Below are positions 51,001-54,000 of a stretch of 64,000 nt of DNA, piece after piece. The stretch's first letter is position 1. Every line of letters begins with the position of its first letter. The position numbers are program-made. Source of the stretch: Escherichia coli (lineage in GTDB: Bacteria > Pseudomonadota > Gammaproteobacteria > Enterobacterales > Enterobacteriaceae); assembly GCF_048403405.1 (NCBI RefSeq), contig NZ_CP183131.1; one strand, given 5' to 3'.

Positions 51001-54000
51001 ATTAATCCATTCAGTGAGTTCTGATGGTGATCGCCCCATGCTGTTCAGGCTGTCCACGGCTTCAAGTTTCTTATCGAATGGGACGTCACGCCAGAAAGCT
51101 GGGCGCGAAGCAGCTCTGAGGAGATAGATCGCCGTAGCCTGAGCATCTTCATTGGATACTTTCAAAAAAACACCTTTACCGTTACATGTCACACCAACTT
51201 CATCGTGACATGTAACACTTCAAACTGCAAGTATAAAAAAAGGCCAGCTATTGCTGGCCTTTACGTTCATTATCGCAGTTACTCTTTAGGCGTTGTGATG
51301 CTTTTTTTCCTTCTGTTTCTCATGGTAGAGATACAGACTGCCGCCAGTGACGACAGTGAAAAAAATGAGCAACCCCAACATGCCTAATGTGAAAGCGTCC
51401 ATTTGACCCCCTTAGGAATTGCTGACCTTGGTTAAGATTATACCATAGATCCACAGGATAACCCCAATGACCAACACCAAACCGGCTTCTTTGACGGTTA
51501 TAGTGTCCCCAGATACAGCCAATCCTACAATACCGACACCGATGGCTGTTACGGCGACCTTACGCAGGTCTTCACCGATAGCTCCCAGAGTCTTCTTGTC
51601 AGGAGAGAAAAGACGCACAAACCACGTCTTAATACGCAAAAACTTTTTCATGATTACCTCCATAGTTGAAGAGGAGGCGAATCATGCCCGAGAGGGCATG
51701 AACACCCCCTCAGGGTTAAAGTTTTAGGCAGACAAAGCTGTTGGCTTCGCCTTGTTCATCTTCATTGAGTTAATGATCTTCGTCGCTTCATCAGCAAACG
51801 GGCCAGTAACTTGGATAGGCTCCCTTCTTGCGAAGGAGGCTGTCACCATCATTCTCTGGCCGTGCATCAGATGACGATACCGAGACCGCATAAGCTCAAC
51901 GTAGGCCGCAGAGTCCCCCTCCCACCCCTCAGGGGGAGAAAAGGGGCACACCGCGTCGTTACCAGGCGTTGTATCAACCTTCGAGACATCAATGACGGCC
52001 ATACTCAGCTCTCCTTCTCGCAATGAAATCGCGCAGGTAGCGAGCATTCGGGAAACCGAGGCTTCCCTGACTCATCAGGACATCGTTCCAGTCAATCCCT
52101 TTCGCTCTGGGCGGGATCGGGAGTTTAGGCAGCAGGACGTACACACGAATGCCGCGCTTCTCCAGCTTGGCTTTCAGCACGTTCGCTGACTTCTCACCAG
52201 TCACAGACTTATCTTTGTCAGCCCAGATCAGTACGGTGTGAACACCTTCTGGAACCTCGAAGGACTCCATCAGGGTCGCATTGACCGTTGACCAAACCGG
52301 GATTTGAGTGACTCGATAAGCTGACAGGGCTGTTTCCAGCCCTTCTGCAACACCCAGGATACCCTCAGTCGGTTCACCGAGGCGGATGGCCGCGCCATTG
52401 ACATCCAAACCGTCAGGAATGGGCATCATCTTCTTGGCGTTGCCGACCTTGGCTTTTTTACCGTTTTGGGTGAGATAGGTGCGGTGGAGCGTTACCAGGT
52501 TGCCTTCCACATCTCGGATAGCGCAGACGATAGCCGGGAATTTCCCAACTTCATTGCCATCTTCGTCGTAGTAGGCCATAGCCGGATTGAACCGCAGACA
52601 GTCTGTTTTTTCTACTTCATCAACCTTGAACAGAAGCTCGCGGTTTTTGAAGTACAGACGCATTGGCTCAGTCACATGACTGGAGAACGGCAAACACTCG
52701 TTCCATACCTTCTCGATTTTCTCACGGAGACGAGCACTGTAAGCGCGTTCGCGCTCCATTCTCTTCTCCATTTCTTCTTGGAGCTCAAGCAGCCAAGGCT
52801 TAGGTTGTTCACGAAACATCGGAACAACTTTCGGCTTGTTTTCGCTGCTTTGCTCTTCCGGTTGTGTGGCCGCATGTTGTACTTGCGGTGCCGGAGCTTC
52901 TACCGTGCGGTTGACCACAGGGGCCGACTCAACATGGTGACTCACCGGCTCAACACCACCGTTCGAGCGAGCGCGGAACTGCGTTACCGTAGCGCCGCGA
53001 CGTTCCACCAGCCAGGTGTTGCGATGCGTTTGCATAGGTTGTTCTCTCACAACATTCCCCTGCTCGTCCTTAACTTCAACGACGACAGTTACAGGCTCGC
53101 GCCCGAGGTTTGTCATGACGATCTCATCCCCATACTTGGCTTCACTTTCACCAATGGCTCTTTCAAGATCCACGCCCCAGATGGTGCGTTCCAAACCGCT
53201 CTTGTCACGGATGAAGGCAAAGTAGCTGAGCTCGTTGTCTTCGTTATGCTCATAAGGAGCTTTACCGTGGGCAATCAGAGTACCGGCAATGGATTTTTTA
53301 CGATTCTTGGAATCGAGAACCTTGTTATTCACCTTCATAGGCTCTTGCTGAACAGGCGCTTTGGCCTGGACAGGAGCTCGTGTCGGTGCAGCGGCTTGTT
53401 GATACTGGGGTTGCTCTTTCTCAACGCCCAGATAATCACCAACCTCGCTCAGGCACTGTTTAAAGTCCCAGTTATTGAGCCACATCAGCAGCTCAAAACC
53501 ATCATGATTGGCACCGCATGTATTGCATACGCCGCCACCAGTCAGGTGGGCATCCTTGAACAGTCGGAAGCCATCTTTCCCGCCGTGGATAGGACAAGAA
53601 ACATGACGACCAGGTTTACGGAGAGCTGGTTCAAGATGGGGCGCTAGGGCCGCCAGGATGAATAGCCAGTTTCCGTTTGCAGCTTCACGAACGGTGTCAG
53701 CTTTGTAGTAAGACATAGGTTTTCTCCTTAGCGTGAACCCCAGCATCGAGGCTTCCTTAAACCCCCGTCGCCAGGGTTTTAAGGAAACCCCGACACCGGG
53801 AGAATGTGCCAAGGAGGCTCCCCAGCCGGGGAGAACTCCCCGGCGAGGGGTTTAAAAAGGTCGCCCCCGAAACGGAGGCGAATTTTGTGAATATCACAAG
53901 CACAAATGAGTGCCATCTTCCGAGGCCATCATGATTGTGACATCTGCGGTTACAGGATCTGACTTAATCACAACCTCAGTGGGTTTGAAAAAGCCATCTA

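What the first reader, a model, noticed from the sequence alone, without database searches (positions are those of the whole stretch)
51181..51402. Inverted repeat generating mirror-image start regions, plus a small membrane-protein gene pair with a hidden 38-aa peptide
Arms GTTACATGTCAC and GTGACATGTAAC (12 bp, 12-bp spacer) make both divergent reading frames begin MTCN; the plus-strand ORF is probably an artefact, but the IR centres on the GTG start of the RHH-like gene and shares the ACATGT core with the main palindrome. Just downstream, an 83-aa membrane protein is followed 10 bp later by an unannotated 38-aa hydrophobic peptide with a strong RBS, then a terminator. This resembles small toxic peptide or membrane-modulator pairs.
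Basis: seen in the sequence. Interest (0 to 1): 0.4.

Follow-up and report, generated by a model that had tools for sequence, protein, structure and literature searches.

The report
Plasmid MatP-like repressor site, membrane pair
The inverted repeat is most likely a conserved pair of binding sites in front of a small plasmid gene related to the chromosome-organising protein MatP. The two tiny membrane-protein genes next to it are real, already annotated, transfer-induced genes of unknown role, with no sign of being a toxin system.

Summary
The window is backbone of an IncC (A/C2) conjugative resistance plasmid. All genes near the finding lie on the minus strand.

The 12-bp/12-bp inverted repeat is exact and real. 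Both "MTCN" starts are artefacts. The downstream gene starts at TTG 51165 (124 aa) and encodes a truncated MatP homologue: four-helix bundle plus ribbon-helix-helix, with no coiled-coil tail.

Each arm is itself a near-palindrome, GTNACATGTNAC, resembling matS with one central base missing. The pair of sites is invariant upstream of every family member found, down to 47% protein identity and including one non-syntenic locus, while the spacer and flanks diverge. A complete 131-kb IncC plasmid carries no other copy. I read this as an autoregulatory operator. Binding and the promoter are inferred, not shown.

The "main palindrome" is the published IncC parS (ParB site) and is unrelated.

The 79-aa two-helix protein and the 38-aa one-helix peptide are pVCR94 genes vcrx124 and vcrx125. 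Both are annotated. They are the last cistrons of an AcaCD-dependent operon closed by the terminator, and both are under purifying selection. The same pairing recurs in distant plasmids and integrative conjugative elements. The ARI-A resistance island splits vcrx124 in many plasmids, so it is dispensable. Nothing supports a toxin role. Moderate interest.

The parts
51205..51216 (.). Site 1 (promoter-distal on the minus strand): GTTACATGTCAC as read on the minus strand. It is a matS-like 12-bp near-palindrome, GTNACATGTNAC.
   Evidence: Exact repeat. Invariant at 10 of 12 positions in 7 lineages. Found nowhere else in a complete 131-kb IncC plasmid.
51181..51192 (.). Site 2 (promoter-proximal): GTGACATGTAAC as read on the minus strand. 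It ends 4-5 nt before the ribosome-binding site of the MatP-like gene.
51193..51204 (.). Spacer of 12 bp (11-12 bp in homologues), free to vary. It holds most of the inferred -10 hexamer CACGAT (51207-51202).
   Evidence: Spacer sequences differ in every lineage. The -10 is my inference; the consensus scan found no promoter.
51225..51230 (-). Inferred weak -35 hexamer TTGCAG, 17 nt upstream of CACGAT.
   Evidence: Read from the sequence. A TTGCAA-N17-GAAGAT arrangement in the same position occurs in L010. Not detected by the consensus scan. Inference only.
50791..51165 (-). MatP-like gene (pVCR94 vcrx126 homologue, WP_000868821.1). It is 124 aa from a TTG start: four-helix bundle plus RHH, with no C-terminal coiled coil.
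   Evidence: Pfam MatP N-terminal domain, E=6e-7, above the gathering cut-off. PDB sequence hits to MatP 4d8j and 7nyw. AF2 model with pLDDT 81. The six best Foldseek PDB hits are all MatP. Start codon.
51232..51262 (-). Intrinsic terminator closing the upstream operon: a 10-bp GC-rich stem, a 4-nt loop and a T7 run.
   Evidence: -26.2 kcal/mol, z -5.7. Conserved after the small peptide gene in all relatives. Published RNA-seq drops to 0 after it.
51286..51402 (-). 38-aa single-helix peptide gene (vcrx125 homologue, WP_000338626.1). It has an N-terminal membrane helix and a basic tail.
   Evidence: Against L005 there are 7 synonymous and 0 non-synonymous differences. Homologues down to about 45-58% identity keep the FFT.VT.G.LY motif.
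51412..51651 (-). 79-aa two-helix membrane protein gene (vcrx124 homologue, WP_000714162.1, named 'permease' by NCBI).
   Evidence: dN/dS of 0.04-0.16 wherever dS was estimable. Family alignment with an invariant IGEDLRK motif. 103 cluster representatives in a profile search. No Pfam, PHROG or PADLOC family.
51526..51530 (.). TACAA (TTGTA on the minus strand): the target site of the ARI-A resistance island in type 1 IncC plasmids, at about codon 42 of the 79-aa gene.
   Evidence: The pSN254 match breaks at window 51530 and IS4321/mer follows. The TTGTA duplication is reported in PMC7652850.
51671..51711 (-). Strong intercistronic RNA hairpin between the vcrx123 and vcrx124 homologues.
   Evidence: -32 kcal/mol, z -5.4. 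The sequence is conserved in L005 and L009.

Best explanation
Two separate units meet at this spot on the minus strand of an IncC plasmid backbone.

(1) Upstream unit. The 79-aa two-helix protein and the 38-aa one-helix peptide are the last two, translationally coupled, cistrons of the AcaCD-activated operon vcrx122-125 (primase-like gene, 92-aa gene, then these two). The strong terminator at 51232-51262 closes the operon. They most likely form a small three-helix inner-membrane complex made in transfer-competent donor cells. Their role is unknown and they are dispensable for plasmid maintenance and, apparently, for transfer.

(2) Downstream unit. Immediately after the terminator lies a separate cassette. 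It is a 124-aa truncated MatP homologue (four-helix bundle plus RHH, no tetramerisation tail), starting at TTG 51165. It is preceded by two copies of a matS-like 12-bp palindrome, GTNACATGTNAC, 24 bp apart centre to centre.

Inferred mechanism: one MatP-like dimer binds each palindrome, reading it with helix 4 and the beta-strand as MatP reads matS. The mirror-symmetric dimer-of-dimers covers a weak promoter (-35 at 51230-51225, -10 at 51207-51202) and the transcription start region. The gene therefore keeps itself almost silent.

Shown: the homology, the fold, the site conservation and uniqueness, the operon structure and the expression levels (the last two are published). Inferred: the binding, the promoter and the repression.
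For: Identity of the replicon: 100% matches to IncC plasmids.

MatP homology:
- Pfam PF06303, 30.3 bits against a cut-off of 27.
- phmmer against the PDB finds MatP 4d8j at 9e-5, aligned over query residues 29-111. The helix-4 motif IRxRRxR and the beta-strand motif KSI are conserved.
- The AF2 model has pLDDT 81 with five bundle helices, a linker and two helices.
- Foldseek ranks 1-6 are all MatP, probability 0.99-1.00.

Site resemblance to matS: the E. coli consensus is GTGACATTGTCAC and the Photorhabdus site is GTTACNNNGTAAC (PMC8669397). The sites here are GTGAC-AT-GTAAC and GTTAC-AT-GTCAC.

Phylogenetic footprint:
- Both 12-mers lie upstream of the gene in IncC type 2 (the window), pSN254, Photorhabdus L018, L076, Shewanella L005/L019 and L009.
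- They also lie upstream of it in the non-syntenic L010, at 47% protein identity.
- The arms are invariant at 10 of 12 positions, while spacers and flanks differ.

Uniqueness: these are the only GTNACATGTNAC sites in the 64-kb window and in the whole 131-kb pAMSC1.

Published pVCR94 RNA-seq (expression in wild type / acaCD deletion / complemented):
- vcrx126: 0/0/0.
- vcrx124: 64/0/1136.
- vcrx125: 19/0/611.
- Predicted operon vcrx122-125, with the nearest AcaCD box upstream of vcrx114.

The small genes are real: dN/dS is well below 1, and against L005 there are 7 synonymous and 0 non-synonymous differences. The two-helix plus one-helix pairing is kept in distant elements L013-L016, L020, L022 and L023.
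Against: - No sigma-70-like promoter passes the consensus scan, and the proposed hexamers match only 3 of 6 each.
- An expression value of 0, rather than merely low, could equally mean there is no promoter at all in E. coli.
- Binding is untested.
- The mirror symmetry of the two sites, and the two compensatory changes in L010, are also what an RNA or DNA hairpin would show.
- Double GTNACATGTNAC motifs also occur in metagenomes next to unrelated genes, so the motif type is not exclusive to this family.
- The site is 12 bp whereas matS is 13 bp.
- For the membrane pair, no function or physical interaction has been shown. A linker-fused AF2 model was uninformative.
Confidence: 0.6

Rival explanations
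1. The repeat works as a nucleic-acid hairpin: an RNA stem-loop in the leader of the MatP-like gene, or a second terminator or attenuator behind the first one. It would not be a protein-binding site.
For: As RNA it folds into a 12-14-bp perfect stem (-23.4 kcal/mol, z -3.75). All 84 cells pair in 7 lineages, and the two variable pairs change on both sides in L010.
Against: - Ten of 12 stem pairs never vary over a divergence that has randomised the loop and flanks. This points to sequence-specific reading, not mere pairing.
- Each arm is itself palindromic (ACATGT core, GT..AC ends). A hairpin has no need of that; a dimeric protein does.
- In L010 each arm is a perfect palindrome, which by itself preserves the inverted repeat.
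- No T-run follows the stem.
- A strong terminator already sits 20 bp upstream.
Confidence: 0.12
2. The two sites are a plasmid 'matS' used in cis. When bound by the plasmid MatP-like protein or by host MatP, they would affect plasmid DNA handling, such as MukBEF unloading, positioning or cohesion. Autoregulation would be secondary or absent.
For: - The half-sites match known matS half-sites.
- MatP's MukBEF function does not need the missing C-terminal tail (PMC8669397).
- The MatP segment that bridges to MukE (residues 38-42, QEAVD in the best-matching MatP chain, 4d8j) aligns with LEAVD here.
- IncC hosts are the bacteria that have MukBEF and MatP (background knowledge).
- The plasmid also carries a Tus homologue.
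Against: - There is one locus per plasmid, always directly in front of the gene, including in the non-syntenic L010.
- The gene is absent from IncA and Edwardsiella relatives.
- The gene is silent in E. coli.
- The 12-bp spacing differs from the 13-bp matS.
- No canonical matS is present on the plasmid.
Confidence: 0.12
3. The 38-aa peptide is a small membrane toxin (type I-like, or paired with the 79-aa protein as its antidote) that serves in plasmid addiction.
For: Its composition is toxin-like: a hydrophobic helix plus a basic tail, 38 aa. The small peptide gene is kept next to its partner in most relatives, though it looks degraded in Photorhabdus L017.
Against: - It has a strong exposed ribosome-binding site 5 nt from the ATG and overlaps the stop of the upstream cistron.
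- It is the last gene of an AcaCD-induced operon rather than a constitutive stand-alone locus.
- There is no promoter-like site on either strand and no RNA-family match above threshold.
- There is no PADLOC or Pfam toxin match.
- It reaches 611 expression units in the complemented strain, a library that was obtained and sequenced.
- The 79-aa gene is split by ARI-A in very many plasmids that keep an intact 38-aa gene and are typed as conjugative.
Confidence: 0.06
4. The repeat is a weak or degenerate IncC parS (ParB site), as the shared ACATGT core suggested.
For: It shares ACATGT with the parS core TTTCACATGTGAAA, which is present five times in the window.
Against: - Only the six core bases plus three scattered positions (9 of 14) match the conserved parS core.
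- The published work shows that ParB does not bind even the exact 14-bp core without its flanks.
- The motif travels with the MatP-like gene into a non-plasmid context, L010.
Confidence: 0.02

Closest known systems
MatP/matS, the Ter-macrodomain organiser of Enterobacteria and Vibrios (PDB 4d8j, 3vea, 7nyw)
   Same: It has the same two DNA-reading modules in the same order: a four-helix bundle, then an RHH. The helix-4 basic motif and the beta-strand KSI motif are conserved. The cognate-looking site uses the same GTGAC/GTTAC half-sites in inverted orientation.
   Different: - 124 aa against 150 aa, with no C-terminal coiled coil, so no tetramer bridging or ZapB link is expected.
- Six residues shorter between helix 4 and the strand.
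- The site is 12 bp (2-bp centre), not 13 bp.
- There are two sites at its own gene, instead of about 23 spread over the terminus region.
- It is plasmid-borne, accessory and silent in E. coli.
- It scores far below the NCBIfam equivalog cut-off (33.5 against 165).
RHH autorepressors with tandem palindromic operators (Arc, Mnt, CopG, ParG, omega)
   Same: A small RHH protein whose gene is preceded by two adjacent symmetric sites overlapping the likely promoter. A dimer-of-dimers geometry is expected.
   Different: It carries an extra N-terminal four-helix bundle that, in MatP, also reads DNA. The sites are 24 bp apart rather than about 11 bp. There is no partner toxin, partition or copy-control gene.
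IncC parS/ParB (22-bp inverted repeat with core TTTCACATGTGAAA; PMC10954446)
   Same: A palindrome with an ACATGT centre on the same plasmid.
   Different: The arms differ and the protein differs (an HTH ParB). parS occurs in 12-14 dispersed copies. The sites here number two and are adjacent.
Small single-helix membrane peptides that partner larger membrane proteins (CydX, AcrZ, KdpF, CcoQ/FixQ), and type I toxins (Hok, TisB)
   Same: A 30-45-aa peptide with one membrane helix and a charged tail, encoded right next to a membrane partner.
   Different: There is no detectable homology; the FixQ hit has E=0.05, below its cut-off. The partner is itself only 79 aa. The context is the transfer regulon of conjugative elements. 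It lacks the antisense RNA and translational silencing of type I toxins.

Membership tests
MatP (macrodomain Ter protein) | N-terminal four-helix-bundle domain (Pfam PF06303) | tested here: met
   30.3 bits against a gathering cut-off of 27, E=6e-7. The AF2 model has bundle helices at residues 5-76. Foldseek top hits are all MatP.
MatP (macrodomain Ter protein) | Ribbon-helix-helix module directly after the bundle | tested here: met
   Aligned to MatP residues 88-121, with KSI in the strand. Two helices at 88-101 and 105-122. Weaker Foldseek hits to Arc and CopG.
MatP (macrodomain Ter protein) | C-terminal coiled coil for tetramerisation and ZapB binding | tested here: not met
   The protein ends 13 residues after the aligned RHH, at 124 aa against 150 aa.
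MatP (macrodomain Ter protein) | Full-length orthologue score (NCBIfam PRK05097 equivalog) | tested here: not met
   33.5 bits against a cut-off of 165.
MatP (macrodomain Ter protein) | Binds 13-bp matS (GTGACRNYGTCAC), present in many copies in one replicon domain | tested here: not met
   No exact matS in the 131-kb plasmid. The window has a single one-mismatch site, which is chance level. The candidate sites are 12 bp, two copies only. Binding itself cannot be tested with these tools.
RHH autorepressor with operator | Symmetric sites overlapping the gene's own promoter and conserved with the gene | tested here: inconclusive
   Position and conservation are met in 7 lineages. The promoter is not detectable by consensus. 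The gene is silent in published RNA-seq.
RHH autorepressor with operator | Protein binds the sites and represses transcription | not testable with these tools
   Needs a gel shift or footprint and a reporter assay.
IncC parS | 14-bp core TTTCACATGTGAAA plus conserved flanks | tested here: not met
   Only ACATGT plus three scattered bases match.
Type I toxin-antitoxin | Small hydrophobic membrane peptide | tested here: met
   38 aa, one predicted helix plus a basic tail.
Type I toxin-antitoxin | Antisense or overlapping antitoxin RNA with its own promoter; toxin translation held in check | tested here: not met
   No promoter-like site on either strand. Only one sub-threshold Rfam hit. The gene has a strong free ribosome-binding site and is coupled to the upstream cistron.
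Type I toxin-antitoxin | Toxicity on expression | not testable with these tools
   Needs inducible expression.
Intrinsic terminator | GC-rich hairpin followed by a U-run at the end of an operon | tested here: met
   10-bp stem with 6 GC pairs plus T7. -26.2 kcal/mol, z -5.7. Published expression falls to 0 downstream.

The most novel reading that the evidence does not exclude
IncC and related plasmids carry a captured, tail-less MatP paralogue together with its own matS-like locus, and the pair acts on chromosome-organising machinery rather than only on itself. Examples would be unloading MukBEF from the plasmid, competing with host MatP at Ter, or timing plasmid segregation relative to cell division. 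With the plasmid's Tus homologue, this would mean the plasmid mimics a chromosome terminus.
Probability: 0.1. Interest if true: 0.75.

Novelty: new variant of a known kind. Interest (0 to 1): 0.4.

Why it matters
IncC plasmids are major carriers of carbapenemase and cephalosporinase genes, and their regulatory circuits are actively studied.

MatP is regarded as a chromosomal protein of the MukBEF-bearing bacteria. I found no paper describing a plasmid-borne, truncated paralogue with a private 12-bp matS-like operator. The published list of pVCR94 regulators does not include this gene.

At minimum, it adds a seventh conserved-type DNA-binding protein and a clean protein/site pair to the IncC map. 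It also offers a natural variant for asking how MatP reads half-site spacing.

The two-helix plus one-helix membrane pair is a widespread, unnamed module of the transfer regulon of plasmids and integrative conjugative elements. It also happens to be the landing site of the ARI-A resistance island.

Several parts of the original finding are ordinary: both start codons are artefacts, the peptide is already annotated, and the parS link is coincidental.

Tried and rejected
- Toxin, defence and holin reading of the pair: Pfam, NCBIfam, PHROGs and PADLOC scans of the 79-aa and 38-aa proteins, and of 60 distant family members, gave no family.
- Small RNA or riboswitch: Rfam found only a sub-threshold Alpha_RBS hit on the wrong strand.
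- parS identity of the repeat: rejected.
- Canonical matS on the plasmid: none.
Twenty-six loci had full 12-mers, but only one (L076) lies next to a MatP-like gene. An HMM search of neighbouring ORFs found no others. The motif class is therefore not diagnostic of the family.
- Genome-collection scan for the protein: only 2 loci in 100,044 species genomes, so the family is rare.
- AF2 of the 79-aa and 38-aa proteins joined by a linker: pLDDT 64 and no usable interface information.
- The Hancock 2017 TraDIS paper is not held, and no paper mentions vcrx122 or vcrx124-127.
- The consensus promoter scan found nothing in 50600-52100.
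Full report
**Context.**
The 1.1 kb around the finding is 100% identical to many 130-240-kb plasmids of Escherichia, Klebsiella, Salmonella, Vibrio and Providencia. These are typed IncC, MOBH, MPF_F. Of 941 PLSDB records with a match, 895 are predicted conjugative.

The window is collinear with pAMSC1 (NZ_CP031106.1) apart from three insertions. All genes around the finding read on the minus strand. In transcription order, with pVCR94 names taken from the gene sizes and order in Carraro et al. 2014 Dataset S1, the locus reads:
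- a primase-like gene, 51989-53812 (vcrx122);
- a 92-aa gene (vcrx123);
- the 79-aa membrane gene, 51412-51651 (vcrx124);
- the 38-aa gene, 51286-51402 (vcrx125);
- a terminator;
- the inverted repeat;
- the "RHH-like" gene, 50791-51165 (vcrx126);
- a 241-aa gene (vcrx127);
- the Rhs gene (vcrx128).

**The observation.**
The arms GTTACATGTCAC (51181-51192) and GTGACATGTAAC (51205-51216) are perfectly complementary with a 12-bp spacer. The repeat finder also reports them as a 24-nt direct repeat at 79% identity. This is because each arm is itself nearly palindromic (items D1, I14, I15).

The MTCN openings of both ORFs follow mechanically from GTGACATGTAAC being present on both strands. Neither is a real start.
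- RefSeq starts the gene at TTG 51165, five nucleotides after AAAGGTG.
- The four most divergent homologues align from exactly that codon.
- In the Shewanella-type plasmid a TAA stop lies in frame between the repeat and the true ATG.
- The plus-strand 60-aa ORF is antisense to vcrx125. In the Edwardsiella relative it is broken into pieces of 28 aa or fewer.

**What the downstream gene is.**
The 124-aa product matches the Pfam MatP N-terminal domain above the curated cut-off. By sequence alone it finds the solved MatP chains 4d8j, 7nyw and 3vea. The alignment runs from the second half of the four-helix bundle through the RHH. It conserves the basic helix (IRQRRRR here, IRARRKR in MatP) and the strand (KSI). 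According to Bürmann et al. 2021, these are the two elements MatP inserts into the major groove of matS.

An AlphaFold model built from four family members has pLDDT 81. It shows five bundle helices, a disordered linker where the strand would pair in a dimer, and two helices. Its six best matches among 350,000 PDB chains are all MatP.

The protein stops 13 residues after the RHH. It therefore lacks the coiled coil that tetramerises MatP. It scores far below the NCBIfam orthologue cut-off. I conclude it is a MatP homologue, not a MatP orthologue.

The family is rare:
- 13 clusters among 5.8 billion proteins;
- 2 loci in 100,044 species genomes.

The published table of pVCR94 regulators does not list it.

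**What the repeat is.**
Read as two 12-mers, the sites are GTTAC-AT-GTCAC and GTGAC-AT-GTAAC. The E. coli matS consensus is GTGAC-ATT-GTCAC, and the high-affinity Photorhabdus site is GTTAC-NNN-GTAAC. The plasmid sites therefore use both known matS half-sites, with one base fewer at the centre.

The decisive evidence is comparative. Every family member I could place on DNA has the same pair of 12-mers, 11-12 bp apart, directly upstream of the gene:

| Lineage | Protein identity to the window |
|---|---|
| IncC (the window) | - |
| pSN254, type 1 IncC | not computed |
| Photorhabdus khanii | 92% |
| L076, metagenome | 90% |
| Shewanella-type plasmids L005 / L019 | 59% / 61% |
| L009 | 61% |
| L010, different gene neighbourhood | 47% |

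In a seven-way alignment, 10 of the 12 positions in each arm are invariant. Spacers and flanks differ in every lineage.

The motif occurs nowhere else in the window or in the complete 131-kb pAMSC1. Only 0.13 exact sites are expected there by chance.

The simplest reading is an operator bound by two dimers of the gene's own product. Three observations fit a tightly shut, self-contained cassette. The published RNA-seq gives vcrx126 an expression value of 0 in wild type, acaCD deletion and complemented strains, while its neighbours are expressed. The gene is replaced by an unrelated 203-aa gene in IncA. It is absent from an Edwardsiella IncC-like plasmid.

**Weak points.**
- No promoter passes the consensus scan. 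My proposed TTGCAG-N17-CACGAT is only 3/6 plus 3/6, although L010 has TTGCAA-N17-GAAGAT in the same geometry.
- The mirror symmetry, and the two double changes in L010, would also suit a hairpin. I rank the hairpin lower for two reasons. The arm sequence, not just the pairing, is frozen. Each arm is also internally palindromic.
- Double motifs of this class also occur next to unrelated genes in metagenomes.

**The "main palindrome".**
AACTTTCACATGTGAAAGTT occurs at 1565, 2644, 12834, 19562 and 40389. It is the IncC parS that ParB binds (PMC10954446). That paper shows ParB needs more than the 14-bp core. The sites here share only ACATGT and three scattered bases with that core, so the shared core is coincidental.

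**The membrane pair.**
The 79-aa protein starts at ATG 51651 behind GGAGG, and all homologues start MKKF or similar. It has a basic N-terminal segment, an invariant IGEDLRK motif and two hydrophobic helices.

The 38-aa peptide starts 9 bp after the upstream stop. Its AAGGGGG ribosome-binding site overlaps that stop. The peptide has one hydrophobic helix and a basic tail.

Both genes are under purifying selection:
- against the Shewanella-type copy, the peptide gene has 7 differences, all synonymous;
- dN/dS is about 0.04-0.16 for the larger gene wherever dS was estimable.

The pairing is old. Homologues at 56-68% identity are followed within 10-25 bp by a 30-45-aa one-helix peptive with a basic tail, then a terminator. 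More distant members found by a profile search show the same arrangement. Closer relatives keep the FFT.VT.G.LY motif.

These homologues lie in other plasmids and in integrative conjugative elements. Their neighbours include primase, TraG_N, RadC, DUF3275, topoisomerase III, DUF3577 and DUF3560. Two family members are natural three-helix fusions. No curated family covers either protein.

Published RNA-seq puts both genes in the AcaCD regulon, as the tail of the predicted operon vcrx122-125:

| Gene | Wild type | acaCD deletion | Complemented |
|---|---|---|---|
| vcrx124 | 64 | 0 | 1136 |
| vcrx125 | 19 | 0 | 611 |

The ARI-A resistance island of type 1 IncC plasmids sits at TACAA 51526-51530, inside vcrx124. 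In pSN254 the backbone match stops at 51530 and IS4321/mer follows. The TTGTA duplication is published. Only 345 of 941 PLSDB matches carry the region in one piece. The 79-aa gene is therefore dispensable.

None of this fits a toxin-antitoxin locus. What the pair does in transfer-competent cells remains unknown.

**Verdict.**
The repeat is real and is almost certainly a functional, conserved protein-binding element. It is not a start-codon curiosity and it is not related to parS. It belongs to a previously undescribed plasmid MatP paralogue.

The small ORFs are real genes, already annotated, of unknown function. There is no evidence that they are toxic.

I found no paper linking MatP to IncC plasmids. 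Database entries do already carry the MatP domain label for some members.

Noticed in passing
window 1565, 2644, 12834, 19562, 40389: Five copies of the palindrome AACTTTCACATGTGAAAGTT. These are the published IncC parS sites bound by ParB (PMC10954446).
   Followed up: yes
window 37266-38180 (-), 38993-39862 (-), 39867-40877 (-): A Tus homologue (Pfam Ter, E=3e-46) lies next to an RNase T-type exonuclease and a tyrosine recombinase. The plasmid therefore carries homologues of two chromosome-terminus proteins, Tus and MatP, about 13 kb apart.
   Followed up: partly
window 22583-22595 and 22455-22515: A 13-bp matS-like site, GTTACGCGGTCAC, one mismatch from the consensus; the count is at chance level. 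In pAMSC1 it lies 7 bp beyond the stop of the tus-like gene. About 70 bp from it is an array of ATAATTACG repeats facing an inverted copy.
   Followed up: no
window 22612-37307; 44037-45229; 60411-61641: Relative to pAMSC1, the window has a 14.7-kb insertion containing IS26, placed exactly at the 3' end of the tus-like gene. It also has two further insertions of about 1.2 kb.
   Followed up: partly
window 51671-51711 (-): A very stable hairpin (-32 kcal/mol, z -5.4) between the vcrx123 and vcrx124 homologues, conserved in relatives. It coincides with a step-down in published RNA-seq (3060 to 1136, and 594 to 64). It may be a processing or partial-termination site.
   Followed up: partly
window 51526-51530: The TTGTA target of the ARI-A resistance island lies inside the 79-aa gene. 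Type 1 IncC plasmids that carry ARI-A therefore carry a split vcrx124.
   Followed up: yes
window 50678-50790 and 49952-50677 (-): The 241-aa gene (vcrx127 homologue) has no family match. It is expressed in published data although the gene just upstream is silent, so it must have its own promoter in the 113-bp gap. Its expression falls when AcaCD is over-produced (109/48/7).
   Followed up: no
L010 (metagenome contig SRR22455138_304395) 3918-3963: The most divergent MatP-like gene sits between a sugar transporter gene and a CxxCxxCC-protein gene, with no plasmid genes in view. Its two operator copies are perfect palindromes, GTCACATGTGAC.
   Followed up: partly
L017 (Photorhabdus contig) 3741-3870: Here the small peptide gene downstream of the 79-aa homologue looks degraded: MDT is followed by a stop, and the frame then resumes at an internal Met.
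   Followed up: no
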